A program made the translations under genes and the position numbers. A model generated the notes under the pieces. The model was not told where the DNA came from. It did not search any database and saw only the letters and a list, made by a program, of their open reading frames with translations. From contig OZ241913.1 in the NCBI GenBank assembly GCA_965203775.1, forward strand, positions 3,242,653 through 3,306,652: 64,000 nt of DNA, read 5' to 3'. This stretch comes from Dehalococcoidia bacterium. Lineage in GTDB: Bacteria > Chloroflexota > Dehalococcoidia > Bin125. Shown in pieces: positions 2,073-27,890 of the stretch (the stretch's first letter is position 1; the number at the start of each line of letters is the position of its first letter).

Positions 2073-3113
2073 ATGAGGATGGCGAACCCCAACAGCGTGG
2101 CAGAGGCGGTGGCTCTGCTGGGCGTCGCGCCGGGAGCGGACGCGGCGGCGGTGCGCAAGCGCTACCGCGAGCTGGCCAAGCAGCTTCACCCCGACCGCAA
2201 CCCCGATGATCCGCTGGCGGACCAGCGGATGGCGGAGCTGAATCGCGCCCGCGACCTGCTGGTCGACGGGGTGCCGCGCGACTTGCAGCGCGGGGCGCCG
2301 GCGAGTCCCCCGCCGCAGCCGAAGCCGGAACCGCAGCGCCGGCCGCAGTCGCGCGCCGAGCGTGCGGAGACGCATCAGGCGTTTCGCGACGAGATGGAGC
2401 GGGCGCGGCGCACGGATACGGAGCGCGAGCGTCGGCGTCGGGCGGCGCGGCGTCGAGCGCGGCAAGAGGCGGAGGAGCGCGCGCGGCGCGCCGCTGAGGC
2501 CGCCCGCGAGGCGGCGGACCAGCCGCCGTCGACCGAGCCGGCTACGGAACGCCGCCGCCGCCGACCGAGCGGGCAAGCGCGAACGGGCGCGAGCAAGACT
2601 GCCGCCCCGAAGCGACGCGGCGGCACCCGCGCGCGCAACGCGCCGCCCAAACGCGACGCATTCACCTCTCCGATCGGTCGAATCTGCGATCTGCTCTCCG
2701 CGCAGGGCTGGGAGGATGCGGTGGCCGCGGTTCGACAGCGCTACCGCGAGGCGGGGGCGTCTGCGCCGCCCAGCGCGGAGTTCGTGCTGTCGGTGGAGCT
2801 TGACGGCGAGGCGCGGGTCGCGGCGGTGGTGGTGGCCGCTCCCGGCGTGCTCGACGGCGCGGCGCTGGACTACGCGATCGGGCGGGCGGCGGAGGTCGGC
2901 GCGCCGTTCGCGTTCGCCGCGAACGAGCGGATGTTCCGTCGGGCCGGCGTCCGCAGCCGAGCACGCACGAATCCGAAAGCGCTCTCGAAATTCCCGAGCC
3001 CCGCTGAGCTGAGCGAGGCGCTGGCGCAGCAGATCGCGGAGGCTGAGGCGGGGGACGGATCGTCGAAGCGCGAGCGCGGGCCGGCGAATTTTGGGCGTCT
3101 GTTCCGTCGCTGA
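2073..3113 (+). CDS. J-domain (DnaJ-like) protein with an Arg/Glu-rich charged segment and an uncharacterised C-terminal domain
   Basis: N-terminus LLGVAPGADAAAVRKRYRELAKQLHPDRNPDD has an intact HPD motif, followed by ERERRRRAARRRARQEAEERARRAAEAA. Confidence 0.75.
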   Translation: MRMANPNSVAEAVALLGVAPGADAAAVRKRYRELAKQLHPDRNPDDPLADQRMAELNRARDLLVDGVPRDLQRGAPASPPPQPKPEPQRRPQSRAERAETHQAFRDEMERARRTDTERERRRRAARRRARQEAEERARRAAEAAREAADQPPSTEPATERRRRRPSGQARTGASKTAAPKRRGGTRARNAPPKRDAFTSPIGRICDLLSAQGWEDAVAAVRQRYREAGASAPPSAEFVLSVELDGEARVAAVVVAAPGVLDGAALDYAIGRAAEVGAPFAFAANERMFRRAGVRSRARTNPKALSKFPSPAELSEALAQQIAEAEAGDGSSKRERGPANFGRLFRR

Positions 3114-15925: not shown

Positions 15926-15972
15926 GGGTTTCGTCTGGGAGAGCGAAATGTTGGTGGAAGCTCGTGGCTTCG

Positions 15973-16025
15973 CACCCCCCACCTAACCTCCCCCCTGGAA
16001 GGGGGGAGGGATGAATTGGGGAATG
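15973..16025. repeat. REP-like element, family B, isolated copy
   Basis: ccccccacctaacctcccccctggaaggggggagggatgaattgggg. Confidence 0.85.
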
Positions 16026-16080
16026 GATGAGTGTTCGGGAGGTGGGGGGTTGGATGATGGGGATGTGGGTGTTGCTGGTG

Positions 16081-16311
16081 TTAGATGTCGATTGCTTCGT
16101 CGCGGCGGCGGCGGCGGGTGAAGGAGATGCGGTTGCCGATTGGGCCGGGGCCGGCGATGAGGATGGTGAGCGGGGCGGCGACGGAGGCGATGCTGAGGAC
16201 GATCAGGAAGAATGCGGCGCCGCCGGCCACGATGATTGCGAAGAGGACGCAGATCAGCGTTGCGGCGAGGGCGAAGACGATGCGGCGGAAGAGGTTGTTT
16301 AGCAGGTTCAT
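16081..16311 (-). CDS. Small hypothetical membrane protein (76 aa)
   Basis: Two hydrophobic segments, 50 nt downstream of the carboxyltransferase gene. Weak support. Confidence 0.35.
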   Translation of the reverse strand: MNLLNNLFRRIVFALAATLICVLFAIIVAGGAAFFLIVLSIASVAAPLTILIAGPGPIGNRISFTRRRRRDEAIDI

Positions 16312-16360
16312 GGCAGGTTCCTTCGCTGCTGGGCGGCGTGGGTGTAACAGAGCGCGGTGG

Positions 16361-17923
16361 TCAGACGCAGGTGGGCCAGGAGGCGAGGGTTTTGGTTTGG
16401 CCGCGCGGGGGCGGGGCGGCGGGGAAGCGCTGAACGGCTTCGAGCAGCCAGCGGCGGGTGTCGGCGGGGTCGATGATTTCGTCGAGGTTCATTATCCCGG
16501 CTGCGCCGTAGGGCTCGTGGCCGAGCGTCCAGTCGTCGATCAGGCGTTGGCGCTCGGCTTCGGGGTTGGGGGCGTTTTCGATGTCGCGGGCGTGAACGAC
16601 GTTGACGCCGACTCCGGGGTCCATGAAGGAGATTTCGGCGCCGGGCCAGGCGGTGACGAGGGCGTTATCGAGGCTGTTGCCGGAGAGGGAGAAGTAGGCG
16701 AGGCCGAAGGCCTTGCGGAGTACGACGGTGAAGCGCGGCACGGTGGTGAGAGCGAGCGCCTCGAGGAACATGATCGCCTTGTGCAGGAGGCGGTTGTGTT
16801 CGGGCTGGCTGCCGACGATGAAGCCGGGCACATCCTGTAGGAAGACGAGCGGGATGTTGAAGGCCTCGCAGAGGCAGAGGAATTGAGTTGCTTTATCGCA
16901 GGTTTCGGGAGTGAGCGCGCCGGCGTTGAACATGGGATTGCTGGCGAGGATGCCGACACTGTTACCGCCGATGCGGGCGAGGGCGGTGATCAGGGAACGC
17001 CCGAAGCGCGGTTTGAGTTCCAGCATTTGTCCGTCGTCGACGATCCGCGCGATTATGCGGTGCATGTCGTAGGCGCGCTGGCGGCGGGTGGGGACGAGTT
17101 CGGCGAGTTGGGGATCGGGTTCGGCGCGGTCGTTACCGGGGAGTATGGGCGGGGTCTGCCAGCAGTTGTCGGGCATGTAGGAGAGGAAGGTTTTGATCAG
17201 GGCGATTGCCGCGTCCTCGTCGTCGGCCACCTGATCGATCTGGCCCGTGCGATCGAGGTGGACGTCGACGCCGCCCAGGTCTTCGAGGGAGATGCGCTCG
17301 CCGGTGGCGATTTCGATGACGCGGGGGCTGGAGACGGCCATCGAGCTGCCGCGCACCTGCACGACGAAATCGGAGAACGCGCCGTGAAAGGAGGAACCGC
17401 CGAAAGATTCGCCGAGGATGGCGGTGGCGAGGGGGATGCGTCGGCGTCGGCGACCCATTTCGAGTCCGGGCGGGATTTTGCTGAAGCCTTCGGAGCCGAG
17501 GGCGTCGGGCAGGCGCGCACCGCCGGTCTCGCCGAAGTAGACGTAGGGGACGCCCTGGGTAAGAGCCTGTTCGTAGATGCGCTTCATGCGCTTGCCGCCG
17601 ACGACCGAGGAGGAGCCGTGGAGGACGGTGATGTCGTCGCCGCAGGCGGCGGCGGGGCGTCCGTCGATTTTGCCCCAGCCGCCGATTTTGCCGTCGCCGG
17701 GCGTGCGGTCGCGGACGTCGGGGTGCTCCGAAACGGCGAATGTGCCGATTTCGCGGAAGCTGCCGGGGTCGAAGAGGCGGTCGAGGCGCTCGCGGATGGT
17801 GAGGCGTCCGCGGGCGTGCTGGCGGGCGATGCGGTCGGCGGAGCCCATCTGCTCGACGATGCGCTCGCGGCGGGCGTGCAGGTCGTCGCGGATTTGTTGC
17901 GGGGTGCGGACAGCGTCGGTCAT
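16361..17923 (-). CDS. Acyl-CoA carboxylase carboxyltransferase (beta) subunit
   Basis: Full-length carboxyl-transferase pattern (two crotonase-like halves; GGARLPD, GESFGGSSF, GPCAGG-like region). Confidence 0.85.
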   Translation of the reverse strand: MTDAVRTPQQIRDDLHARRERIVEQMGSADRIARQHARGRLTIRERLDRLFDPGSFREIGTFAVSEHPDVRDRTPGDGKIGGWGKIDGRPAAACGDDITVLHGSSSVVGGKRMKRIYEQALTQGVPYVYFGETGGARLPDALGSEGFSKIPPGLEMGRRRRRIPLATAILGESFGGSSFHGAFSDFVVQVRGSSMAVSSPRVIEIATGERISLEDLGGVDVHLDRTGQIDQVADDEDAAIALIKTFLSYMPDNCWQTPPILPGNDRAEPDPQLAELVPTRRQRAYDMHRIIARIVDDGQMLELKPRFGRSLITALARIGGNSVGILASNPMFNAGALTPETCDKATQFLCLCEAFNIPLVFLQDVPGFIVGSQPEHNRLLHKAIMFLEALALTTVPRFTVVLRKAFGLAYFSLSGNSLDNALVTAWPGAEISFMDPGVGVNVVHARDIENAPNPEAERQRLIDDWTLGHEPYGAAGIMNLDEIIDPADTRRWLLEAVQRFPAAPPPRGQTKTLASWPTCV

Positions 17924-20900
17924 TGGGCAGTCTCCGGTTGGGGTTGGGCGAGCGACGCCTGTTCGGCGGCGCCGGTGTGGGTGTAGAGCAGCCAGGCCTC
18001 TTTGACGGTCTGGCCGGCGGCAGTGAGCATTGCGGCGTAGGTTCGCACCTGCTCCTTGTAACGTCGATCTCGTTCGCGATCGCGGGAACGGTCGCTTTTG
18101 AAGTCGACGACGATCCAGCCGCCGGGCTCGTGAAAGACGAGGTCGGCGACGCCTTCGATGATGGTGATTTGGGCGGCGTCGGCGCCGTTGGAGCTGTTTG
18201 CGGCCTGGACGAGGGGGAGCTCGAAGTGGCGCTGGTCGGCTTGGGCGGCGCGGCGGAGCAGGTCGGTGTTGAGGGCGCGGTGGATTTCGGCCGCAAAGTC
18301 GGTGAGATCGAGCTTGTACTCCTCGGCGACGCGTCGGGCGATGTTGGCGGTTCGGGCGGGGTCGTTGAGGTCGGCGAGGGCGAGGGCGCGGTGGATGGCG
18401 ATGCCGCGCTTGAGCGCCTGCGCGCGGGAGGATGCGGGAGGAACGTATTCGGGAGGAGTAGTGTCGTCGTCGTCATCGGCGGCGGCGGTACCGGCTTCGC
18501 GCTCGGCTTTTTCTGCGTCGCCGCCGTGCTGCGAGGGGGCGCGGGTGATGATATTGACGCGGCCGGTTTCGAGCGTTGCGGCGCGGCGGGATTGCCAGGC
18601 GTCGGTGATCGCCTGGTGGGCGACGGGCGCGGGTTGGGGGGTAGGCGGTTCGAAGGCGTCGAACTGGTCGGGGGAGAGCTCGATAACGTGATCGGGGTCG
18701 GCGGTTTGGAGGGGTTCTTCGAGGAAGGCGGCGAAGGTGGATTCGGCGCGGCTCTGGGCGAGGAAATGGGGGAGGATGAGCCAGTCTTCGGCGCGGGTGG
18801 CGGCGACGTAGAGGAGGCGTCGGAATTCTGCTTCGGCGTGGGTGCGTTCGCGATCAGGGTCGAAGCCGGGAGTGTGGAAGCCGGCGTTGCTGGGGCCGAC
18901 CTGGATTTCGAAGGTATCGTTTTCGCGGTCGACCATCAGCTGGGTGGTGTCGCGGCGTCCGTCGCCGAGTTTGGGGACGATCACGATGGGGAATTCGAGG
19001 CCTTTGGCCTGGTGGATGGTGAGGATGCGGACGACCTGCTCGACGGCTTCGGAGGTGGCGGACTCGGCTTCGGAGAGGTCCTGATCGCGGCGCTGGGCGA
19101 TCCATTGGACGAAGGGGCGCAGGGAGTCTTCGGCGGCGGCGGCGAATTCGGCGGCGCGGTGGACGAGCATCTGCAGGTTGGCGGCGCGCTCTGCGCCGTG
19201 AATGCCATGCGCGAACTGCGCCTCGAGCAGGCCGGATTTGTGCAGTACGAAGTCGATGAACTGGGGCAGGGAGCGGTCGCGCAGGCCATCGCGCAGGCTG
19301 CGCAGCTGGGCGAAGCCGTCGCGGAGCGGGCCGTCGTACTCGTCGGGCACGGCGTGTTCGTCAAGCGTGAAGCGGGCGCGGCGGTTGGGGTCGTTGCGGG
19401 CGTAGACGTAGTCGAAGAGTTCCTGGTCGGAGGCGGAGGCGAGCGGGGTTTTGAGGGCGGACATGACGGCGACTTCGTCGGTGGGATCGTCGACGGCCAT
19501 GAGGATGTTGGCGAAGTCGTGGATTTCGGGGCGGGTGAAGAAGCCGCGTCCGCTGTCGAGGTGGTAGGGGATGGCGTGTTGGTCGAAGGCTTTGGTGTAG
19601 GTGTCGATTGCGGTGCGGGTGCGGACCAGGACGGCGATGTCGCCCATCCTGGGCGGGCGCGGGGCAGGGCAGGCTTGCTTTCGCTGGCAGGCGTCGCAGT
19701 TTTCGCAGGGCAGCTGGCCGAAGCCGGCGCGGTTTTCGGTGAGGTCGTGGATCAGGCGAACGAGCAGATCGGCTTCGGCTTCACGGGCCAGGGCGACCCG
19801 CTCGAACACATCGCCGCCGTTGATGACGACGACGCCCGGGCCGTCGCCCTCGCGGTGTGCGGCGATTGGCTTGCCGTAATCGGCTTGCGCGCCTTGGTGC
19901 TCGGGATCGGTGTGCAGGATTTGGGGGAAGGCGTCGTTGGCCCAGCCGACGAGGTCGGGGCGTGAGCGGAAGTTGACGCCGAGCCGCTCGACGGCTGCGC
20001 CGGCGTCGTCCTCGGCGGTCTGCTCGAAGATGCGCTGAACCTGCTGGTAGATGCGGATATCGGCGCGTCGGAAGCGGTAGATGGACTGTTTGGGGTCGCC
20101 GACGACGAAGAGTTTGCCGGGGGCGGGCTGCGCGGCGCGCCAGTCGTCGGTGTCTTCGGCGGCGGCGAGCAGCAGGACGAGTTCGGACTGGAGCGGGTCG
20201 GTGTCCTGGAATTCGTCGATCAGCAGGGTTTTGAAGCGCCGGCGGAAGTGCTGGCGGGCGCGGGGGTGGTCGCGGATCAGGTTGCGGGCGTAGAGCAGGA
20301 GGTCGTCGAAGGAGAGTTTGCCGGCGGCGCGGCGACGGTCGGCGTGCCAGGTGACGAAGTCGGTCAGCGCTCGCAGCAGGCGATGGAGCGCGGTGCTGCG
20401 CACGGCGTCGGCGAACTCGTTGCGGTCGTCGGCCGCGTCGTCCCAGAGTTCGCGGGCTTCGGCGTTGCGCTTGTACTTGCGGGGCGGGCGGATTGTCGGA
20501 TCGGCGGCGAACAGGGCCATGCGTCGGGCGAGGGCGTCGGCGTCTTCGCCGTCTCGCTCGCCGCCGCGCAGGTCGTCGAGTCCCTGTAGCAGCGCGGCAA
20601 TGCGGTTGTGGGCTTCCGGGCTGTCCTCGACCCGCAGATAGGCGTCGGCGGTCCGCTGCGCGTCGATAATCCACTGGTCCAGCGTCGCGGCCGGGTCGGG
20701 GACTTCCGCGCCGAAGCCGGGAGGATTGAGGTCGCGGTAGCGGCCGACGAGTTCGGCGGCGTCCTGGATGTGCGAAACCTGTAGGCCATGGCTCAGCATC
20801 TCTTCCAGCGCGCTGGTGTGGCTCTGGTCGCGCCCGGACCAGATCCATTCGTCCCAGGCGTCCCGGAAATCAAGCGTCTGGCCGAGTTGATCGAGGACGC

Positions 20901-22029
20901 TGAAGTAGGGGGCGAGCTTGGCCTCGAAGGGTCGCTCGCGGAGCAGGCTGGAGGCGAAGGCGTGGATGGTGCCGATCTGCGCGACATCCACCTGTTCCTG
21001 CGCTGTGCGCAGGCGATCGCGCTCTGCCGGATTGGGGGCGTCTTTCAGCTCGTCGGCCAGGCCGCGGCGGATTCGGGCGCGGAGTTCGCCAGCGGCCTTT
21101 TCGGTGAAGGTGATGGCGACGATTTCGCGTAGTTCGGCTTTGCCCTGGCGGACGGTTTCGATCACGCGCTCGACCATCACGCGGGTTTTGCCCGCGCCGG
21201 CGCCGGCTTCGAGGAAGAAGGAGGTATCGAGTTCGTGGACGACGCGCTCGCGGGTTTGTTGGTCCTGGTCGGCGATTTGGCGACGGGCGCGCTTGCGTTC
21301 CTCGGCGGCTTCAGCTTCGCGACGGGCGCGCTCAAGCTCGGCTGCTTCCCGCGCTGCAGCTGCTTCAGCTTCGCGGCGCACTCGCTCGCGTTCGGCGGCT
21401 TCCCGCGCTGCGGCGGCCTCAGCTTCGCGGCGCACCCGCTCACGCTCGGCAGCTTCGGCTTCTCGGCGCACTCGCTCGCGTCTGGCAGCTTCGGCTTCGC
21501 GGCGCGCTCGCTCGCGTTCGGCGGTTTCGGCTTCGCGGCGGGCTTGCTTGCGTTCTGCCTCGGCTGTGGCCTCGCGCCAGGCGCGTTCGCGTTCTGCCGC
21601 TGCTTCGGCTTCGCGACGTGCTTGTTCGCGTTCTCGGGCTCGTTCGTGTTCGGCCGCGGCTGTAGCCTCGCGCCAGGCGCGTTCGCGTTCTGCCGCTGCT
21701 TCAGCTTCGCGGCGCGCTCGTTCCGCCTGCTGCTGAGTCTGTCGGTTGCTCCCGCCAGCGCGGCGTGGAGCCTGCTCAGATCCGGTGCGACGGCGATCGC
21801 CCTGCTGCCTTCCAGGAGTTGGCTTCGGGTCGTCGGACAGGATGGGCTCCACGAGCTCCCAAGCTACGTTGATCTCCGCCGTGCGCTGGTCAGCGTCGGT
21901 GGCGGCGTTGCGATCAGAGTGATGAAGTTTCACCAGTTTGCGGTAAGCTGCCAAGCCAGCTTTCTTCGTCGTGCTGGCCGAGATGCCCAACACCTTGAGC
22001 GCTTCTTTCGGGGTTTTCGGAATTGCCAT
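17920..22029 (-). CDS. addA: AddA/RecB-type UvrD-family helicase-nuclease with an N-terminal J-like domain and charged coiled-coil extension
   Basis: J-like LKVLGISASTTKKAGLAAYRKLVKLHHSDRN (HPD replaced by HSD), about 200 aa of REAEAAAERER repeats, Walker A GAGAGKT, DEFQDTD, and the C-terminal RecB nuclease motif GVADLVFHEPGGWIVVDFKSD. Confidence 0.8.
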   Translation of the reverse strand: MAIPKTPKEALKVLGISASTTKKAGLAAYRKLVKLHHSDRNAATDADQRTAEINVAWELVEPILSDDPKPTPGRQQGDRRRTGSEQAPRRAGGSNRQTQQQAERARREAEAAAERERAWREATAAAEHERAREREQARREAEAAAERERAWREATAEAERKQARREAETAERERARREAEAARRERVRREAEAAERERVRREAEAAAAREAAERERVRREAEAAAAREAAELERARREAEAAEERKRARRQIADQDQQTRERVVHELDTSFFLEAGAGAGKTRVMVERVIETVRQGKAELREIVAITFTEKAAGELRARIRRGLADELKDAPNPAERDRLRTAQEQVDVAQIGTIHAFASSLLRERPFEAKLAPYFSVLDQLGQTLDFRDAWDEWIWSGRDQSHTSALEEMLSHGLQVSHIQDAAELVGRYRDLNPPGFGAEVPDPAATLDQWIIDAQRTADAYLRVEDSPEAHNRIAALLQGLDDLRGGERDGEDADALARRMALFAADPTIRPPRKYKRNAEARELWDDAADDRNEFADAVRSTALHRLLRALTDFVTWHADRRRAAGKLSFDDLLLYARNLIRDHPRARQHFRRRFKTLLIDEFQDTDPLQSELVLLLAAAEDTDDWRAAQPAPGKLFVVGDPKQSIYRFRRADIRIYQQVQRIFEQTAEDDAGAAVERLGVNFRSRPDLVGWANDAFPQILHTDPEHQGAQADYGKPIAAHREGDGPGVVVINGGDVFERVALAREAEADLLVRLIHDLTENRAGFGQLPCENCDACQRKQACPAPRPPRMGDIAVLVRTRTAIDTYTKAFDQHAIPYHLDSGRGFFTRPEIHDFANILMAVDDPTDEVAVMSALKTPLASASDQELFDYVYARNDPNRRARFTLDEHAVPDEYDGPLRDGFAQLRSLRDGLRDRSLPQFIDFVLHKSGLLEAQFAHGIHGAERAANLQMLVHRAAEFAAAAEDSLRPFVQWIAQRRDQDLSEAESATSEAVEQVVRILTIHQAKGLEFPIVIVPKLGDGRRDTTQLMVDRENDTFEIQVGPSNAGFHTPGFDPDRERTHAEAEFRRLLYVAATRAEDWLILPHFLAQSRAESTFAAFLEEPLQTADPDHVIELSPDQFDAFEPPTPQPAPVAHQAITDAWQSRRAATLETGRVNIITRAPSQHGGDAEKAEREAGTAAADDDDDTTPPEYVPPASSRAQALKRGIAIHRALALADLNDPARTANIARRVAEEYKLDLTDFAAEIHRALNTDLLRRAAQADQRHFELPLVQAANSSNGADAAQITIIEGVADLVFHEPGGWIVVDFKSDRSRDRERDRRYKEQVRTYAAMLTAAGQTVKEAWLLYTHTGAAEQASLAQPQPETAQ
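21290..21730 (-). repeat. Imperfect in-frame tandem repeats encoding the Arg/Glu/Ala coiled-coil of the AddA fusion
   Basis: Recurrent gcttcggcttcgcggcgcgctcgctcgcgttc-type units on the + strand. Confidence 0.7.
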
Positions 22030-22086
22030 TGTGGTTTGCGCGGTTCCTTTAGCAGGTGGGTGGTGTGAGGTCGCGTGTGTTGCTGA

Positions 22087-25000
22087 TCAGCGGATGCGCT
22101 TTGCGACTAGCTGCTCGAAGTCGGCGGTGAGGGACTGGTTGCGGCGCTGCTTGGTTATGTAGCGGGGGGCGACCTGCGAGTTGCAGGCGGGCTGGAAATC
22201 GCACCATTTGCAGTGAGTGTCGTCGGGCTTCTTCTGCGCTGAGCGGAAGGGAAAGGGGAAGAATGCGCCGTTGACGATGCCCTCGGAGATGGTTTCCAGG
22301 ACATGCTCCAGCTCGTCGGCCGGCGTGAGGGCGTCGGGCGTTCCGTGGGGAGCGAGCTCGCTGCCATCGAGCGGTTCGCGCTGGAAGCCGCCTTTGGCGG
22401 AGACGTAGAAGAATTCGGCGGTGGATGCGGCGAGCTCGCCGCGGTCGTCCTGCTCCATGGCGTGGAGGTAGAGGGGGAGTTGCATGAGGTAGCCGGAGCG
22501 GAAGGCTTCGGCGGCGTCGCGGCGGTGTTTGCCGGTCTTGTAGTCGATTGCGCGGCGGCGTCCGCCGGGCGCTTCGTCGACCCGGTCGATTCGGCCATTG
22601 ACGATCAGGGTGCGGTCGTTGCCGGCGTCCAGCTGGACGTTCTCGAATTTGCGCTCGACGGAGCGGGGGCGCCAGTGGGGCTCGGCGGCGGCGCGTTTCG
22701 CTTCGGCCTGGCGGGCTTGTTCAAGGTCGTCGAGCACCTGGCGTCGGAGGCCGTCGGCGATGCCGGGGGGACCGAGTTGGCGCTTCTGCTCGGCCTCGTC
22801 GAGCTTTGCGTTGGCGACTTCGAGCAGCGGAGCGGGGTCGAGGGCGTACTCGGGCCAATCCGGGCGTTTCTGGTTGAGCCAGTTTTGCACCCAGGCTTCG
22901 AGGATCTCGTGCATGAGGCTGCCACGATCGAGCACGGAGAGTTCGCCGCCTTCTTCGGGCTCTTCGACGGCGTGGACGCCGAGGATGTTGGCGAGGAAGA
23001 AGCGGTAGGGGCAGGCGGCGTAGCGCTCGAGGGCGGTGGCGGAGAGGGTGCGCTGGCCGTCGAAGGGATTCCAGAGGTCGCCGGGGGGGCGGATGAGGCC
23101 GTCGAATTCGGTGAATTGGAGGCTGTTGCGTCCGCGTCGGGCGATGTCGGCGCGCTCGGCGGGGAGGCCGCCGATCTCGAGCAGCAGCTGGTGGCCGACG
23201 ACGCCGGGGGCGCTGAGCATGGCGATGCGCAGGTCCGATTCGTCGAGCGCGCGTTGTTCTGCGCCCCAAATCGGCGCGCCGTCCTCGTCGGGGCGGGGCG
23301 CGGCTTCGGAAACGGCGGCGGGGAGGCGTTGGAAGCGCTCGCTCTTGTTGAGGGCTTCTTCATCGAGCGGAGCGGTACCGGAGCCGTTGACGCGGCCGAT
23401 GGCCTGGGTGAGTAGGACGGAGGGGTGTGAGGGGCCGCCGACGGCGGAGGCGCGGCGGGCGTAAGAGAGGGTGAGTCGTTTGCGGGCGGCCTGCTCGATC
23501 AGGGTGAAGGCGAGACGGTCCAGGCGGGTGCGGGTTTGGCCGAGGCGCAGGGCTTCGGCTCCGATTTGGGCGTTGAGGTCGCGGCGGGCGCTGTCGGGCA
23601 GGAGCGGGTCCTGGCGGGGGACGGCGGGAAAGCTGCGCTCGGCCATGCCGGGGACGAAGACGGCGTCGAAGCGGAGGGTTCGGGCTGCGCCGGCGGCGTT
23701 GCCGATCAGGACGCCCTGGAGGGCGCGGCGTGGCCGGAGGCGGGACTTGTTGAGCGCGCCGCGGGCGGCGTGGAGCAGGCGGGCGGAGGTGTAGCGGGCT
23801 TCGATTCGGTCGATGCCGCCGAGCTCGGAGAGCGCGGCGCGGATGGCGTCGATTAAGCGGGGGTAGTCGTCGGGCGCGTCTTCAGCTGCGTCGGAGTCCG
23901 GCCTGCCTCGGCCGTCGTTGATGTAGTCGTCGAGCGCCTTGAGCACGACTTTGACGGCGTCGGACCAGTTGCCGGCGTGCGCAATCTGGTCGGCGCGCGA
24001 TTGCAGGTCGTCGCAGACCGCCAGCAGTTCGCGGGTGGCTTGCTGCTCGTAGGGGCGTTCGGCGTCGTTGCGCTTGAGTGAGTCGAGGTGCTGTTCGAGG
24101 TGGGAGTGGAACTCGGCCCAATCGCTGGTCAGGCGGGCGCTGCGGGAGATGCGCTCCCACTGGAGCGGCTTGGGGCGCGGACCGACGGGGAGGGGCGCGC
24201 GGAGGGTGGGATTGCCGAGGAATTCGAGCAGTTGGGGGCGCTGGGGTTTGTCGCAGAGCAGTTCGAGCAGGCGCAGGGCGGCGCGCCCGGGGTTGGTGTG
24301 GAGGACGGGCTGTCCGCCGGCGACGAAGGCGGGGATGTCGGCGCGCCGGAGCGCGTCGGCGAGGCTGGCGTCGCCTGCGGCACCGGCGCGGTGGAGGATC
24401 GCCATTTCGTGGAATTTGACGCCGCCTGCGGCGGCGTCGAGGACGCGGCGGGCGGTTTCGGCGGCTTCGGCGCGGGGATCGGAGGTGGAGAAGCCGCCCG
24501 CGGCGGCCGGGCTCGATTGGGCGGGCGCGGGCGGGAGCGACTCGGCGTCGGTTTCGGCTTGGAGAGTGTCGGCAAGAGCGGCGGCGTGTTCGTCGCCGTC
24601 GGGGGCGGGGATGAGCACGTGGACGGGAACCTGCGCGGCGCAGCTGGCGAGCAGTTGACGCTGGACGCGGGTGAAGTCGTACATGCCGGTGACGATCAGC
24701 CGCGCGCCGCCGAGTGCGGCGGCGATGTCGTGGGGCTGGACGGCCTGGGCGAGCGCGTCTTCGTAGAAGGAGGGGCGGTCGCGGAGTTCGGCGGCGCGGT
24801 CGCGCCAGGCGGTGTAGAGCGCGGCGAGGTCGGCGATGATGCGGCGGTCGTCGGCGTTGGCGGGGCGGTCGTGGGCGAAGCGGGCGAATGTTTCGGCGTC
24901 GACGCCGCCCTCGCGGAGGTCGGTGAAGGTGACGTGCAGCGCTTCGGCGAGGCCGGGGGAGTTGGGGTCGAGTTCGCGGAGCTGACCGGCGGCGGCGAGG

Positions 25001-25299
25001 TTGTGGATGATGTCGTCAAGCAGGAGCGGGGCGGCGCCGGGCGGGAGCAGGATGCGCTTGGGCAGGTCGGCGCGGTCGGCGATTTCGCGGGCGAGGTCGG
25101 CGGGGGTGAAGAAGTAGATGGCGGCGAGCGGGCCGACTTGTTGTGCGAGGCGGCGCTGGTGGTAGAGGCGCTGGAGGCCGGAGCCGACGAGGATGTTGAC
25201 GCGGGCAAGGGGTTGGTCGGCGCGCCGCTCGCCGAGCGCCGCCTGAAGGCGGCGCTCGGCGGCGGCGATGTCGCGGCAGCGCTCGATGGTGAGGGGCAT
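22087..25299 (-). CDS. addB: AddB-type PD-(D/E)XK nuclease subunit with C-terminal Fe-S cysteine cluster
   Basis: Sits directly upstream of addA. C-terminal region has CPYRFF ... IDYKTGK ... CKWCDFQPAC. Confidence 0.75.
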   Translation of the reverse strand: MPLTIERCRDIAAAERRLQAALGERRADQPLARVNILVGSGLQRLYHQRRLAQQVGPLAAIYFFTPADLAREIADRADLPKRILLPPGAAPLLLDDIIHNLAAAGQLRELDPNSPGLAEALHVTFTDLREGGVDAETFARFAHDRPANADDRRIIADLAALYTAWRDRAAELRDRPSFYEDALAQAVQPHDIAAALGGARLIVTGMYDFTRVQRQLLASCAAQVPVHVLIPAPDGDEHAAALADTLQAETDAESLPPAPAQSSPAAAGGFSTSDPRAEAAETARRVLDAAAGGVKFHEMAILHRAGAAGDASLADALRRADIPAFVAGGQPVLHTNPGRAALRLLELLCDKPQRPQLLEFLGNPTLRAPLPVGPRPKPLQWERISRSARLTSDWAEFHSHLEQHLDSLKRNDAERPYEQQATRELLAVCDDLQSRADQIAHAGNWSDAVKVVLKALDDYINDGRGRPDSDAAEDAPDDYPRLIDAIRAALSELGGIDRIEARYTSARLLHAARGALNKSRLRPRRALQGVLIGNAAGAARTLRFDAVFVPGMAERSFPAVPRQDPLLPDSARRDLNAQIGAEALRLGQTRTRLDRLAFTLIEQAARKRLTLSYARRASAVGGPSHPSVLLTQAIGRVNGSGTAPLDEEALNKSERFQRLPAAVSEAAPRPDEDGAPIWGAEQRALDESDLRIAMLSAPGVVGHQLLLEIGGLPAERADIARRGRNSLQFTEFDGLIRPPGDLWNPFDGQRTLSATALERYAACPYRFFLANILGVHAVEEPEEGGELSVLDRGSLMHEILEAWVQNWLNQKRPDWPEYALDPAPLLEVANAKLDEAEQKRQLGPPGIADGLRRQVLDDLEQARQAEAKRAAAEPHWRPRSVERKFENVQLDAGNDRTLIVNGRIDRVDEAPGGRRRAIDYKTGKHRRDAAEAFRSGYLMQLPLYLHAMEQDDRGELAASTAEFFYVSAKGGFQREPLDGSELAPHGTPDALTPADELEHVLETISEGIVNGAFFPFPFRSAQKKPDDTHCKWCDFQPACNSQVAPRYITKQRRNQSLTADFEQLVAKRIR

Positions 25300-25358
25300 A
25301 GGGAGAGGGTAGCCCGCGAGCGCGTTTGCGTGGGTGGGTAGAGAACGCCGGCCGCGGG

Positions 25359-25697
25359 TTAGACGGCGGAGGGGCCGCGCTCGCGGGTGCGCACGCGGAC
25401 GGCGTCTTCGACGGGGAGGACGAAGATTTTGCCGTCGCCGATCTGGCCGGTGCCGGCGTTTTCGAGGATCGCGTCGATCACGGAGTCGAGCGGGGTGGTG
25501 TTGATCACGATCTCGATGCGGATTTTGGGCAGGTAGTCGACCTGCACCTGCTGTCCGCGGTACTCCTGGACCATGCCGCGCTGCGCGCCGCGGCCGCGGA
25601 CTTCGGTGATCGTCATGCTGACGATGCCGATCTGTTCGAGCGCGTGGCGGACGATCGAGAGTCGTTCGGGTCGGATGATGGCGATGACCATCTTCAT
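25359..25697 (-). CDS. glnK: P-II nitrogen regulatory protein
   Basis: MKMVIAIIRPERL... with T-loop EYRG. 112 aa, immediately downstream of amt. The track N-terminal extension was rejected. Confidence 0.9.
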   Translation of the reverse strand: MKMVIAIIRPERLSIVRHALEQIGIVSMTITEVRGRGAQRGMVQEYRGQQVQVDYLPKIRIEIVINTTPLDSVIDAILENAGTGQIGDGKIFVLPVEDAVRVRTRERGPSAV

Positions 25698-25767
25698 GGG
25701 ATGAGCCTTTCTGTAGCGGGGGCGGCCGGGTGGGCCGCCCCCGCGCTGTGGTTGCCGCGGGGCGAGG

Positions 25768-27285
25768 CTAGTCGCCGCCGGCAGCGGGTGCGGGAGCGGG
25801 CGACTCCTCGAGTGCGGAGACTTCGGTCGCGGTGCCCGGCGCGACGGTGGGGAACTCGGGGTAAGCGCCGATGCCGTGCTCCTGGACATCGAGGCCGGCG
25901 AGCTCTTCGGCTTCGCTGACGCGCAGGCCGATGGTGTTCTTGATCACGAAGAACAGGATGCCGGCGGTGGCGAGCGTCCAGCCGAGGACGGCGAGGATGC
26001 CGACGATCTGCACCCAGAGGACGCCGAAGCCGCCGCCCATCAGCAGGCCGTACGGACCGGTCCACTCTTCGATCGGGATGTCGGTGCCACTCCAGAAGTG
26101 AGCGCCGCCTTTGATGGCGAAGAGACCGACAGCCAGAGTGCCCCAGATGCCGCACACGCCGTGGACGGAGATTGCGCCCACAGGGTCGTCGATTTTGATC
26201 CGGTCGAAGAACGCGACGGCGAAGACGACCAGAACTCCGCCAACAGCGCCGATGAGCAGCGCGGCCCAGGGCTCGACGAAGCCGCAGCCGGCGGTGATCG
26301 AGACGAGTCCGGCGAGCGCGCCGTTCATCGTCAGGCCGAGGTCAGCCTTGCCGTAGCGGAGCTTGGCGACGCCCATGGCGACGATCGCGCCTGCGCCGGC
26401 GGAGAGGGTGGTGTTGATCGCGACCCAAGCGGCTTCGGTGGCGAGCCCGTCGGTGAGGCCGAGGGTGGAGCCGGGGTTGAAGCCGTACCAGCCGAACCAG
26501 AGGATGAACATGCCGAGCGCGGCCATGCTCATGTTGTGTCCAGGAATGGCGGTGGGGGTGCCATCAGAGGCGTACTTGCCGATGCGGGGTCCGAGCAGGA
26601 AGGCTCCGGCGAGTCCGGCCCAGGCGCCGACGCTGTGGACGATCGTCGAGCCGGCGTAGTCCATGAAGCCCGTCTCGCCGAGCTCGCTCAGCCAGCCGCC
26701 GCCCCAGGTCCAGTTGACGACGATCGGGTAGATCAGGCCGGTGATGAAGACGGTGTAGAAGAGGTAGGCGGAGAATTTGGTGCGCTCGGCGAGCGCGCCG
26801 GAGACGATGGTGGCGGCGGTGGCGGCGAAGGCCCATTGGAAGAAGAAGAGGGCGGCCTCGGAGACGCCGTCGGTCTCGGTCAGCCCGCCCAGGGCGGGGA
26901 AGAACGAGTGGCCGCCGATGAAGCCGCCTTGACTGGTGCCGAAGGCGAAGCCGAACCCGACGGCCCACCAGACGACGCCGCCGAGCGAGGCGTCGAGCAC
27001 GTTCTTCATCAGGATGTTGGCGGTGTTTTTGACGCGGACGAAGCCGGCCTCGAGCATCCCAAATCCCGCCTGCATGAAGAAGACGAGGATGCCGGCGATG
27101 ACGTACCAGATGGTGTCGACGGCGAGGATCAGGTCGGCGACGGCTTCGGCGTCCTGCGCGGCGGCGATGCCGAGAGTGGCGAGCAGGGCGGTGGCGAGGC
27201 CGGCGGCGAGGCCGATGCCCGCTCGTTTGGCTCCGCGGGGGAGCCTGCCCCGTAAGGGGCGACTGCGAATTCCGGGGTGAATCAT
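25768..27285 (-). CDS. amt: Ammonium transporter
   Basis: Amt/MEP signature regions (FGFNPGS, HGVCGIWG) and an N-terminal signal-like segment. Start chosen at MIHPGIRS. The track N-terminal extension comes from translating repeats. Confidence 0.9.
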   Translation of the reverse strand: MIHPGIRSRPLRGRLPRGAKRAGIGLAAGLATALLATLGIAAAQDAEAVADLILAVDTIWYVIAGILVFFMQAGFGMLEAGFVRVKNTANILMKNVLDASLGGVVWWAVGFGFAFGTSQGGFIGGHSFFPALGGLTETDGVSEAALFFFQWAFAATAATIVSGALAERTKFSAYLFYTVFITGLIYPIVVNWTWGGGWLSELGETGFMDYAGSTIVHSVGAWAGLAGAFLLGPRIGKYASDGTPTAIPGHNMSMAALGMFILWFGWYGFNPGSTLGLTDGLATEAAWVAINTTLSAGAGAIVAMGVAKLRYGKADLGLTMNGALAGLVSITAGCGFVEPWAALLIGAVGGVLVVFAVAFFDRIKIDDPVGAISVHGVCGIWGTLAVGLFAIKGGAHFWSGTDIPIEEWTGPYGLLMGGGFGVLWVQIVGILAVLGWTLATAGILFFVIKNTIGLRVSEAEELAGLDVQEHGIGAYPEFPTVAPGTATEVSALEESPAPAPAAGGD

Positions 27286-27458
27286 GCATTCCTCCGTTCC
27301 CGGGTGGGTGGTGTCATTGAGTAAGCTATGCAGCGTTGGCGGCAGCTTGGTTTCGCGCGGTTTACGCGCTTGTGTCGTTTGGATGTCGCCGTGTTTCGGG
27401 GATGTTTCGGGGACTGATCGTGAGTGGGGTAAATCGGGCAGGTGAGCGGAGCGGGACG

Positions 27459-27890
27459 ATGAACTATCGGCTGATGCGGGCGGTGACGCGAATTCAGGAT
27501 GCGCAGTTTTCGCTGTTTGGGGGGCGCTGGATGGGTCCGCCGACGCTGCGGTTGACGACGACGGGTCGGCGGAGCGGTCGGGCGCGGCGGGTGCTGCTGC
27601 TGTATCTGGAGGATGGGGAGCGGCTGGTCGTGATCGCGTCGGCGGGCGGGGCGGCGGCGGATCCGGACTGGTGCAAAAATCTGCGGGCAAATCCGCGGGC
27701 GGTGGTGGAGCGCGGCAGGCGGGCGACGGCGGAGTATGAGGCGGTGGAGTTGGAGGGTGAGGAGCGGGAGGCGATGTTCGGGAAGATGTGCGGGCTGTTT
27801 TCGCATTTCGAGGGGTATCAGCGGAAGGCGGGGCGTTTGATTCCGGTGGTGGCGTTGGAGCGGGTGGGGTTCCTGCCTGCGCAGGAATGA
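27459..27890 (+). CDS. Deazaflavin(F420)-dependent nitroreductase-family protein
   Basis: TTTGRRSGRARRVLLLYLEDGERLVVIASAGGAAADPDWCKNLRANP pattern. The C-terminal GFLPAQE and the stop codon come from a family A repeat. Confidence 0.7.
   Translation: MNYRLMRAVTRIQDAQFSLFGGRWMGPPTLRLTTTGRRSGRARRVLLLYLEDGERLVVIASAGGAAADPDWCKNLRANPRAVVERGRRATAEYEAVELEGEEREAMFGKMCGLFSHFEGYQRKAGRLIPVVALERVGFLPAQE

What the first reader, a model, noticed from the sequence alone, without database searches (positions are those of the whole stretch)
17920..22029. AddA helicase-nuclease fused to a degenerate J-domain and a charged coiled coil of about 200 aa
The N-terminal 60 or so aa fit the J-domain helix II-III pattern, but HPD is HSD. 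The HPD tripeptide is needed to stimulate the Hsp70 ATPase, so this domain may only bind DnaK, or may do something else. It is followed by highly repetitive REAEAAAERER units and then a complete UvrD/RecB-type helicase with a C-terminal nuclease. The free-standing protein at 2073-3113 has the same J-domain + Arg/Glu-rich architecture with an intact HPD, suggesting a shared module. I am not aware of a described chaperone-linked AddAB.
Basis: partly seen in the sequence, partly recalled or inferred. Interest (0 to 1): 0.65.

Follow-up and report, generated by a model that had tools for sequence, protein, structure and literature searches.

The report
AddA helicase-nuclease with J-like head
In a sponge-associated Dehalococcoidia bacterium, the DNA-break-processing enzyme AddA has recently gained an in-frame front end made of a fast-evolving, mostly degenerate J-domain (chaperone-recruiting fold) on a long charged helix; the fusion is real, differs between strains and is missed by public annotation, but its J motif is probably no longer a working chaperone switch.

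Summary
A 1369-codon ORF on the minus strand (22029..17920) encodes four parts:
- a three-helix J-type domain (aa 1-64, HSD instead of HPD);
- a disordered linker (65-94);
- an uninterrupted Glu/Arg/Ala helix of about 160 aa (95-252);
- a complete AddA (Walker A at 275-282, RecB-type nuclease at 1202-1356).

AddB lies directly upstream.

Origin and spread:
- The extension is an 839-nt insertion of foreign codon usage. It replaces the 52 nt that hold the ancestral, translationally coupled addA start in relatives that are 95-97% identical.
- It is not an assembly artefact. Both junctions appear in contigs of at least six runs from at least four studies, often beside the short allele.
- Four in-frame long alleles exist: HPD, HSD twice, and one with the HPD loop deleted.
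- No usable start codon exists between the repeats and the Walker A motif. Public gene calls that start at M285 are wrong.

The J head evolves nearly neutrally (dN/dS 0.6-0.7, against 0.13 in the helicase). The stalk lacks heptad hydrophobics, so it looks like a single alpha-helix rather than a coiled coil.

Verdict: a real, unreported, strain-polymorphic J-like-AddA fusion. In this allele it is probably not a canonical DnaK activator. I found no description of it in the literature I searched.

The parts
22087..25299 (-). addB: 1070-aa partner subunit with a C-terminal PD-(D/E)XK nuclease and a four-Cys cluster
   Evidence: PDDEXK_1 at 127 bits, residues 751-1040. Cys763/1030/1033/1039 form a C...CX2CX5C pattern; RIDRV903 and DYK919 are present. 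NCBIfam gives only weak addB_Gpos/TIGR03623 hits, below the cut-offs.
22030..22086 (-). 57-nt leader brought in with the insertion. It contains AAAGGA 15 nt upstream of the ATG and replaces the ancestral TGATG stop/start overlap.
   Evidence: Junction comparison with L001/L002. The leader is conserved in all four long alleles. It holds no in-frame start codon. No sigma-70-like promoter or terminator was found.
21247..22086 (-). The insertion as a whole: the 839-nt extent given by blastn (written here as 840 positions, an off-by-one at one end). It replaces 52 nt of the short allele and has foreign codon usage.
   Evidence: blastn window vs L001/L002. Reads show the joint 21246->22086 'skips 839, 52 letters between'. 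GC3 is 0.62 against 0.84 (helicase) and 0.87 (addB); Ala GCC is 44% against 80%.
21838..22029 (-). J-like domain, aa 1-64: helices I-III, no helix IV
   Evidence: PF00226 at 23.4/28.0 bits. AF2 pLDDT 85 with Foldseek hits all J-domains. Alignment with HPD-bearing J-proteins.
21913..21921 (-). H37-S38-D39 (CAC TCT GAT) at the HPD position
   Evidence: Sequence. All of the closest external J-domains that I read and aligned have HPD. Allele B has HPD, C has HSD, and D has lost the loop.
21748..21837 (-). Pro/Gly/Arg/Gln-rich disordered linker, aa 65-94
   Evidence: AF2 pLDDT is below 50 at residues 60-79 and 81-93. The linker is nearly identical in alleles A, B and C.
21274..21747 (-). Glu/Arg/Ala-rich repetitive helix, aa 95-252 (probably a single alpha-helix stalk, about 24 nm if fully helical)
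   Evidence: TRF periods of 36/54/39/57 nt. Composition and enrichment of opposite charges at i,i+4: 33 against 24.3±3.8. Continuous AF2 helix with pLDDT 85-97. Copy number varies between alleles and reads.
17920..21273 (-). AddA proper, from A253 ('ADQDQQTRERVVHELD', like the ancestral N-terminus) to the stop. Walker A is AGAGAGKT at 275-282 (21184-21207). The nuclease is at 1202-1356 (17962-18426).
   Evidence: Pfam UvrD-helicase, UvrD_C and AAA_19. PDDEXK_1. 95-97% nt identity to eight relatives, dN/dS 0.12-0.15.
21235..22068 (+). Spurious antisense 277-aa ORF that public gene callers prefer over the true extension
   Evidence: ORF list. It was called as a gene in L011, which carries the identical allele. 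P0172 equals window residues 285-1369.
2073..3113 (+). Free-standing J-protein (HPD intact) with an Arg/Glu-rich stretch and an unassigned C-terminal domain; a distant relative of the AddA head
   Evidence: DnaJ at 50 bits. tblastn gives 41% identity over 61 aa, E 7e-8. Pairwise E values are 1e-11 to 1e-13 to all four heads. The C-terminal 147 aa has no Pfam hit.

Best explanation
This is a real, translated, recent gene fusion.

How it arose: a foreign 5' gene fragment recombined into the start of addA in one lineage of a sponge-associated Dehalococcoidia population. The fragment carried its own leader, an ATG, a J-domain, a linker and an Arg/Glu/Ala repeat helix. It deleted the ancestral start, which overlapped the addB stop.

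Why the extension must be translated: the new ATG at 22029 is the only start from which a complete, Walker-A-bearing AddA can be made without beginning inside the added J head or repeats.

What the enzyme does (inferred): AddA-AddB still works as an ordinary helicase-nuclease that resects double-strand breaks.

What the added module is: by descent, a J-domain held on a flexible linker plus a rigid helix of about 24 nm, placed in front of motor domain 1A.

What the head does in the window's allele (inferred):
- The HPD proline is Ser, and across the alleles the motif is not under constraint.
- The head is therefore most likely an attenuated or dead 'J-like' domain, not an Hsp70 ATPase activator.
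- The extension persists mainly because it carries the start codon and is harmless.
- Any remaining role would be plain binding, through the retained basic face of helix II (R30, K31, K34).
For: Reality of the insertion:
- The window has 839 nt where L001/L002 have 52 nt, with clean junctions.
- Both junctions and the insert lie in contigs of runs X1, X3, X5, X6, X7, X8 and X9 from several studies, often together with the short form.
- The identical allele occurs in a second 3.40-Mb assembly, L011.

Translation:
- Four alleles of 1304-1369 aa are all in frame. All indels are multiples of 3. The leader and the 'MAIP' start are conserved.
- There is no in-frame start between GTG217 and the Walker A motif.
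- Variants in run X7 are mostly third-position and synonymous: 7 synonymous against 4 amino-acid changes.

Foreign origin:
- GC3 is 0.62 against 0.84-0.87 in the flanking genes.
- All outgroups at 53-87% identity have the short form, 1117-1162 aa.

J ancestry:
- Pfam scores are 28.0 bits (allele A), 36.1 (B), 27.3 (C) and none (D).
- The predicted fold matches only J-domains.
- The nearest relatives whose sequences I read are all small HPD-bearing J-proteins.

Relaxed constraint on the head:
- The motif is HPD in B, HSD in A and C, and the loop is deleted in D.
- For aa 21-68, dN/dS is 0.6-0.7 against 0.12-0.15 in the helicase.

The HPD is part of the primary interface that stimulates Hsp70 ATP hydrolysis and is near-invariant among J-domain proteins (PMC10410713).
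Against: - Several deeply diverged alleles persist. In the head, dS is 0.4-0.6 against about 0.1 in the flanks, and it is saturated for allele D.
- A 1.4-kb tract with zero differences, carrying allele A, is shared by two genomes that otherwise differ by about 4%. This looks like recent spread by recombination and could reflect selection for the module.
- Allele B keeps a full HPD and scores above the Pfam threshold.
- The basic face of helix II is retained in allele A.
- The repeat helix has dN/dS of about 0.2, although alignments of repeats are unreliable.
- No expression or protein data could be found.
Confidence: 0.5

Rival explanations
1. The module is a working chaperone adaptor. The J head recruits DnaK to AddAB, either to remodel or recycle the enzyme or to clear protein roadblocks at DNA ends. 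It does so fully in HPD alleles, and in HSD alleles perhaps in a weakened or binding-only mode.
For: - The J fold and the basic face of helix II are retained.
- Allele B has HPD and scores 36 bits.
- The alleles are long-lived, and a recombination tract is spreading allele A.
- Precedents from general knowledge: polyomavirus large T antigen carries an N-terminal J-domain on a helicase, and DnaJ/DnaK release lambda P from the DnaB helicase.
Against: - HPD is lost in three of four alleles, and each of the three residues is lost in some allele.
- The head evolves almost neutrally.
- Helix IV is absent.
- About half of the population, and all outgroups, do without the module.
Confidence: 0.25
2. 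The head on its stalk is a fast-evolving interaction surface under diversifying or balancing selection. It could be, for example, a decoy or sensor for phage proteins that target AddAB or DnaK, with heads swapped between alleles by recombination.
For: - Hypervariability is confined to aa 21-68, between conserved flanks, and both dN and dS are raised there.
- At least four to five alleles, plus presence/absence polymorphism, occur within single samples.
- Allele D's head is about as far from alleles A-C (33-35% identity) as from the free J-protein (33%). This suggests replacement of the whole head.
- The alleles are mosaics, and a 1.4-kb tract is identical between two otherwise diverged genomes.
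Against: - dN/dS is below 1 in every pair.
- No defence genes were noted next to the locus. The neighbours are Amt/P-II, a carboxyl transferase and a DNA-alkylation repair gene.
- No partner is known.
Confidence: 0.12
3. The extension is not part of the mature enzyme. Translation starts at an internal GTG (codon 187, 199 or 217), or the region is a non-coding spacer, and the long ORF is a by-product of high G+C content.
For: - Long ORFs are common at 68% G+C.
- The AAAGGA lies 15 nt from the ATG, further than is usual.
- Gene callers chose M285 plus an antisense ORF.
Against: - A start at M285 removes the Walker A motif.
- Only this frame is open across the insert on the coding strand.
- Four alleles with many substitutions and indels keep the frame and the ATG.
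- A J-domain sits exactly at the N-terminus.
- The polymorphisms are biased to third codon positions.
- An internal GTG start would still include 45-75 aa of the stalk.
Confidence: 0.1
4. The fusion is an assembly chimera or a sequencing error (including Ser38).
For: The region is repetitive and polymorphic, and short-read unitigs break there.
Against: - The same junctions occur in many independent runs and assemblies, including three complete contigs of about 3.4 Mb.
- HSD is also seen in the independent allele C.
- No read variant was reported at 21916-21918 in eight runs.
Confidence: 0.02

Closest known systems
AddAB helicase-nuclease (Bacillus subtilis type; RecBCD analogue)
   Same: - AddA has a UvrD-like SF1 motor plus a C-terminal RecB-family nuclease.
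- AddB is directly upstream, with a PD-(D/E)XK nuclease and a C...CX2CX5C cysteine cluster.
- The two genes lie in an addB-addA operon.
   Different: - It has a 252-aa N-terminal J-like head plus helix.
- Scores lie far below the NCBIfam equivalog cut-offs: addA_Gpos 299 against 707.65, addB_Gpos 56 against 903.7.
- The AddB N-terminus shows no GK[ST] Walker A motif in the sequence.
Polyomavirus (SV40) large T antigen (comparison from general knowledge, not tested here)
   Same: An N-terminal J-domain is joined by a linker to a DNA helicase in one polypeptide. It is the best-known J-domain-helicase fusion.
   Different: - It is an SF3 hexameric replicative helicase of a eukaryotic virus.
- Its HPD is intact and is needed for Hsc70-dependent functions.
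- It has no nuclease and no long charged helix.
J-like proteins without HPD (e.g. mitochondrial Pam16/Tim16; DNAJB13)
   Same: A J-type helical fold whose HPD is altered, so that Hsp70 ATPase stimulation is not expected. DNAJB13 lacks the classical HPD (PMC10410713). Pam16 is cited from general knowledge.
   Different: Those proteins are conserved and have defined partners. Here the head varies between strains, and one allele still carries HPD.
Small free-standing J-domain + Arg/Glu-rich proteins (window 2073-3113; P0121, 213 aa)
   Same: A J-domain at the extreme N-terminus, followed by a short Pro/Gly-rich linker and an Arg/Glu/Ala-rich helical stretch. The free J-protein is 41% identical over the J-domain.
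   Different: They have an intact HPD, are not fused to an enzyme, and are no closer to the AddA head than other database J-domains, which are up to about 50% identical.
ER/K-type single alpha-helix (SAH) spacers (e.g. myosin VI/X, caldesmon; general knowledge)
   Same: A long, uninterrupted, highly charged helix with enriched opposite charges at i,i+4 and almost no hydrophobic core positions.
   Different: It is one third alanine and uses Arg rather than Lys. Whether it is monomeric is untested. It is built of 12-, 13- and 18-residue tandem repeats whose copy number varies.

Membership tests
J-domain (Pfam PF00226) | Profile score at or above the gathering threshold (27.8 bits) | tested here: inconclusive
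   23.4 bits in the whole protein and 28.0 bits for the isolated N-terminus. Sister alleles score 36.1 (B), 27.3 (C) and no hit (D).
J-domain (Pfam PF00226) | Helix I / helix II / loop / helix III hairpin fold | tested here: met
   The AF2 model has pLDDT 85 and helices at 7-14, 22-35 and 46-63. All top 50 Foldseek PDB hits are J-domains, with probability 0.91-1.0 (1.00 for the top 25) and RMSD of about 1-1.5 A over 52 residues for the best-fitting hits. Caveat: the alignment used for the model consisted of J-domains.
J-domain (Pfam PF00226) | Helix IV | tested here: not met
   Profile positions 53-63 are unmatched. No helix follows residue 63-64 in either AF2 model.
J-domain (Pfam PF00226) | His-Pro-Asp tripeptide between helices II and III | tested here: not met
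   The window has H37-S38-D39.
J-domain (Pfam PF00226) | Basic residues on helix II that face Hsp70 | tested here: met
   Y29-R30-K31-x-x-K34 aligns with the AYRxLAxxHHPD consensus.
J-domain (Pfam PF00226) | Stimulates Hsp70/DnaK ATPase | not testable with these tools
   This needs a biochemical assay. No dnaK gene lies in the window.
AddA subunit of AddAB | UvrD-like SF1 helicase N- and C-terminal domains with a Walker A GKT | tested here: met
   PF00580 at 190.7 bits and PF13361 at 89.8 bits. AGAGAGKT lies at residues 275-282.
AddA subunit of AddAB | C-terminal RecB-family PD-(D/E)XK nuclease | tested here: met
   PDDEXK_1 at 39.2 bits on the last 226 aa. Motifs GVADL, DFK and QVRTY are present.
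AddA subunit of AddAB | Adjacent AddB partner with a nuclease and a Cys cluster | tested here: met
   The upstream ORF has PDDEXK_1 at 127 bits and Cys763/1030/1033/1039.
AddA subunit of AddAB | Score above a curated NCBIfam equivalog cut-off (addA_Gpos, addA_alphas, recB) | tested here: not met
   299 against 707.65, 212 against 860.75, and 231 against 696.05. The protein is a divergent member of the AddA/RecB superfamily.
AddA subunit of AddAB | ATP-dependent, Chi-regulated resection of DNA ends | not testable with these tools
   This needs a biochemical or genetic assay.
Canonical coiled coil | Heptad pattern with hydrophobic a/d positions | tested here: not met
   Only 7 of 152 residues are VILMFWY, spaced 32, 36, 12, 18, 15 and 20 residues apart. 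Repeat units are 12, 13 and 18 aa.
Charged single alpha-helix (SAH) | Continuous predicted helix, high charge, enriched opposite charges at i,i+4 | tested here: met
   Helix at 95-273 with pLDDT 85-97. R+E make up 56%. There are 33 i,i+4 pairs against 24.3±3.8 in shuffles.
Charged single alpha-helix (SAH) | Monomeric and stable in isolation | not testable with these tools
   This needs CD, AUC or SAXS.

The most novel reading that the evidence does not exclude
The J-like head on a rigid stalk is a selected, swappable interaction module of AddAB, not a relic. It would either couple DnaK to the processing of double-strand breaks, or act as a rapidly diversifying decoy or sensor in a conflict with phage proteins. 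Its alleles would be maintained and spread by recombination within a sponge-symbiont population.
Probability: 0.2. Interest if true: 0.8.

Novelty: new variant of a known kind. Interest (0 to 1): 0.55.

Why it matters
AddAB/RecBCD enzymes are central to bacterial break repair and to the destruction of phage DNA. As far as my literature searches reach, no member has been described with a chaperone-type domain attached.

Here the fusion can be seen soon after it arose. The ancestral allele and several derived alleles circulate together in one natural population, and the derived alleles carry an intact, a mutated or a deleted HPD. That gives a ready-made allelic series to test two questions: whether a J-domain can be put to use on a DNA-repair motor, and how quickly a captured domain decays.

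The case also exposes a systematic annotation error. Gene callers replace the unusual extension with an antisense ORF and truncate AddA behind its ATP-binding motif.

Tried and rejected
Searches that found nothing useful:
- Scans of genome contigs and metagenome contigs with the first 100 aa found no relative.
- An exact 39-nt junction pattern found nothing in metagenome contigs.
- The word-indexed protein search with the 289-aa N-terminus was swamped by Arg/Glu-rich proteins and gave 3 weak hits.
- The exhaustive phmmer search found nothing closer than about 50% identity, so no donor gene was identified.
- The full-length fused protein is not on record as a called gene. The long alleles turned up only as hidden members of 90% clusters whose representatives are short.
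- A request for RNA runs returned only runs of unknown kind, which look like host-genome or metagenome DNA, so expression could not be tested.

Method note: BLASTP with composition adjustment failed to align the two J-proteins of the window. tblastn and unadjusted BLASTP did align them.

Ideas rejected:
- Diversity-generating retroelement: the changes fall on all codon positions and dS is also raised.
- Assembly chimera: many independent assemblies and runs carry the fusion.
- Downstream start near the Walker A motif: no start codon exists there, and M285 lies after GKT.
- Long allele ancestral, short allele derived by deletion: all outgroups are short.
- The long-allele and short-allele carriers are not separate clades by helicase sequence. 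All pairs are 95-97% identical.

Full report
**1. What is in the sequence**

The finding's coordinates hold one ORF on the minus strand, 22029..17920, with an ATG start and 1369 aa. The window has about 68% G+C.

Pfam finds these domains in the protein:
- UvrD-helicase at residues 258-667, 190.7 bits.
- UvrD_C at 947-1086.
- A weak DnaJ match at 12-59: 23.4 bits, against a gathering score of 27.8.
- On the isolated first 105 aa, the DnaJ score is 28.0 bits.
- The last 226 aa match PDDEXK_1 at 39.2 bits. The RecB nuclease motifs GVADL1293, DFK1309 and QVRTY1327 are present.

The ORF directly upstream, 25299..22087, is an AddB-like subunit. It has PDDEXK_1 at 127 bits and cysteines at 763, 1030, 1033 and 1039.

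NCBIfam ranks addA_Gpos, recB and addA_alphas first, but all fall far below their equivalog cut-offs. The pair is therefore a divergent AddAB.

The tripeptide at the HPD position is H37-S38-D39, encoded CAC TCT GAT at 21921-21913. Ser is one transition away from Pro.

**2. Anatomy of the extension**

J-like head:
- With an alignment of the nearest J-proteins, AlphaFold2 gives a confident three-helix domain (pLDDT 85; helices 7-14, 22-35, 46-63) and no helix IV.
- All 50 best Foldseek matches in the PDB are J-domains. Probability is 1.00 for the top 25 and 0.91-1.00 for the rest. The best E-value is 8e-3, which is modest because the domain is short.

Linker and stalk:
- A single-sequence model of residues 1-360 shows the same three helices.
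- It then shows a disordered stretch, with pLDDT below 50 at residues 60-79 and 81-93.
- One unbroken helix follows, from 95 to 273, with pLDDT 85-97.

Composition of the repeat region, residues 101-252:
- 33% Ala, 28% Arg and 28% Glu.
- Only 7 hydrophobic residues, at irregular spacing.
- Opposite charges at i,i+4 are enriched: 33 pairs against 24.3±3.8 in shuffles.

At the DNA level the region is built of tandem repeats of 36, 54 and 39/57 nt. This fits a charged single alpha-helix better than a heptad coiled coil. The stretch is about 160 aa long, not 200.

**3. The extension is an insertion**

- The closest homologues (81-97% identity) are about 1125 aa and begin 'MANSSHAPRQPADADIRRRVVHELD'.
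- In their contigs (L001, L002, and the Dehalococcoidia MAG chromosome OZ241849.1 = L003), the addB stop overlaps the addA ATG as TGATG.
- blastn shows that window 22085..21247 (839 nt) replaces 52 nt of those loci. The flanks are 93-96% identical.
- The insert brings a 57-nt leader, a new ATG and 261 codons.
- Its codon usage is foreign. GC3 is 0.62, against 0.84 in the helicase and 0.87 in addB. Ala GCC is 44% against 80%.
- All more distant relatives (53-87% identity; 11 clusters checked) are short, so short is the ancestral state.

**4. It is real and polymorphic**

- Contigs of public runs from sponge and marine metagenomes, and from host-organism sequencing projects, hold up to 92% of the sampled words of the insert and its junctions.
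- Laid on the window, runs X1, X3 and X5 hold contigs that cross both junctions, and X6 holds contigs that cross the left junction and run to within 25 nt of the right one.
- X1, X3, X7, X8, X9 and X12 also contain the short form, seen as the joint 21246->22086 with 52 other letters between.

Cluster members hidden behind short representatives revealed more long alleles:
- P0171, 1355 aa, from a 3.40-Mb contig. Motif 'RFHPDVN', with HPD intact.
- P0170, 1337 aa. Motif 'RHHSDHN'.
- P0168, 1304 aa, from a 3.46-Mb contig. Motif 'RHNPLTAE'. By alignment with the free J-protein, the HPD loop is deleted.

The allele that dominates runs X6 and X8 (depth 320 and 1290) has the structure of P0168. L011, a 3.40-Mb contig from another sample, carries exactly the window's allele.

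**5. It is translated with AddA (inferred from conservation, not shown directly)**

- All four alleles keep the leader, the 'MAIP' start and the reading frame, despite many substitutions and several indels. All the indels are multiples of three.
- On the coding strand, only this frame is open across the insert.
- Between GTG217 and the Walker A motif (AGAGAGKT, 275-282) there is no in-frame start. The next starts are GTG284 and ATG285, after the GKT.
- Polymorphisms in run X7 inside the insert give seven synonymous and four amino-acid changes.
- Public annotation nevertheless calls an antisense 277-aa ORF and starts AddA at M285. P0172 is exactly window residues 285-1369. That call removes the ATP-binding loop and is wrong.
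- No RNA data could be found.

**6. How the parts evolve** (Nei-Gojobori estimates)

| Region | dS | dN | dN/dS |
|---|---|---|---|
| Helicase-nuclease | 0.09-0.16 | 0.013-0.019 | 0.12-0.15 |
| J head, aa 21-68, alleles A/B/C | 0.41-0.63 | 0.27-0.37 | 0.6-0.7 |
| Repeat helix | 0.09-0.72, varies by pair | 0.016-0.15 | about 0.2 |

- Residues 1-20 and the linker are almost identical among alleles A, B and C.
- Allele D is saturated relative to the others in the head and linker.
- Pfam scores follow the same order: B 36.1, A 28.0, C 27.3, D none.
- Each of the three HPD residues is lost in at least one allele.
- The HPD, with helices II and III, forms the primary interface that stimulates Hsp70 ATP hydrolysis. 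In a survey of about 280,000 J-proteins it is near-invariant, and the HPE variant makes up about 1% (PMC10410713).
- The canonical activity therefore does not appear to be what keeps the head.

Signs of a recombining population:
- The helicase parts of eight genomes are all 95-97% identical. Carriers of long and short alleles are not separated.
- The window and L011 differ by about 4% over 15 kb. Yet they have no difference at all from about 22702 to about 21303, which covers the end of addB, the leader and almost the whole insert. This is a recent recombination tract that carries allele A.
- The five long-allele loci share an inverted gene order relative to the short-allele loci L001 and L002.

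**7. Relation to the other J-protein**

- The 346-aa protein at 2073-3113 has a good J-domain (50 bits, HPD). An Arg/Glu-rich stretch and an unassigned C-terminal domain follow.
- Its J-domain is 41% identical to the AddA head (tblastn E 7e-8).
- All four heads match it at pairwise E values of 1e-11 to 1e-13.
- Unrelated database J-proteins reach up to about 50% identity, so it is not demonstrably the donor.
- P0121 (213 aa) is another free-standing protein with a J-domain plus an Arg/Glu-rich stretch.
- The 'shared module' idea therefore holds for the architecture and for distant homology only.

**8. Interpretation**

Shown:
- The fusion exists.
- It came from a foreign insertion.
- It is polymorphic within the population.
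- The head descends from a J-domain.
- The head is under relaxed constraint.

Inferred:
- AddAB still acts as an ordinary end-resection enzyme.
- The extension is translated because it carries the start codon.
- In the window's HSD allele the head is an attenuated or dead J-like domain, held about 24 nm from the motor by a rigid helix.

The main rival is that the module does recruit DnaK, at least in the HPD allele. A more speculative reading is that the head is a fast-evolving interaction surface kept by diversifying or balancing selection. The persistence of deeply diverged alleles and the recombination tract give these rivals some weight.

Full-text searches found no description of a J-domain-AddAB or J-domain-UvrD fusion. 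The nearest analogy I know is the J-domain-helicase arrangement of polyomavirus large T antigen (general knowledge).

**9. Verdict**

This is a new variant of a known kind. Its interest is moderate: the fusion is real, unreported and offers a natural allelic series. However, it is restricted to one species-level clade, it is degenerate in this allele, and no function has been shown for it.

Noticed in passing
window 21303-22702 (compared with L011): A stretch of about 1.4 kb has zero differences between the window and L011, two genomes that otherwise differ by 3-9 sites per 200 nt on both sides. It covers the 3' end of addB, the leader and almost the whole extension. This is a recent recombination tract carrying allele A.
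   Followed up: partly
window 15927-27857 (compared with L001/L002): The block of about 12 kb that holds carboxyl transferase-addA-addB-P-II-Amt is inverted relative to the flanking MFS/FAD/DNA_alkylation genes in all five long-allele loci (window, L007, L009, L010, L011), compared with the short-allele loci L001 and L002.
   Followed up: partly
window 21235-22068 (+) and 17920-21177 (-): Public gene calls for this allele take an antisense 277-aa ORF over the extension and start AddA at M285, after the Walker A GKT. P0172 equals window residues 285-1369. This is a mis-annotation, probably caused by the odd codon usage of the insert.
   Followed up: yes
window 21640-21702: Copy-number variants of 39 nt (13 aa) occur in the repeat helix in runs X5, X10 and X12, seen as joints 21662->21702 and 21640->21680. 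Run X10 also shows a further diverged head allele, with about 50 differences in 21702-22200.
   Followed up: no
window 22087-22089 and 22029: The addB stop codon TGA is in the same reading frame as the long addA ORF, 60 nt upstream of its ATG. Read-through would join AddB to AddA. This is probably a coincidence.
   Followed up: no
window 79-1794 (-): A 571-aa protein made of RCC1-type repeats (RCC1_2 at 278 bits in 11 stretches; RCC1-like domain at 180 bits), with a Thr/Pro-rich spacer in the middle. This is a eukaryote-like repeat protein of the kind often reported in sponge symbionts.
   Followed up: partly
window 2670-3113 (+): The C-terminal 147 aa or so of the free-standing J-protein has no Pfam match at E<=0.01, so the domain is of unknown type.
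   Followed up: partly
window 17920-17923; P0024: The addA stop overlaps the start of the downstream carboxyl-transferase gene by 4 nt. In a relative at 48% identity (P0024, 1360 aa), AddA is called as one protein fused to a carboxyl-transferase domain. This is likely a read-through or a frameshift in that contig.
   Followed up: no
P0124 (3748 aa): The best hit of the J-like head in the exhaustive search is a 3748-aa protein with five separate J-like stretches. This is an unusual multi-J-domain giant protein, not examined further.
   Followed up: no
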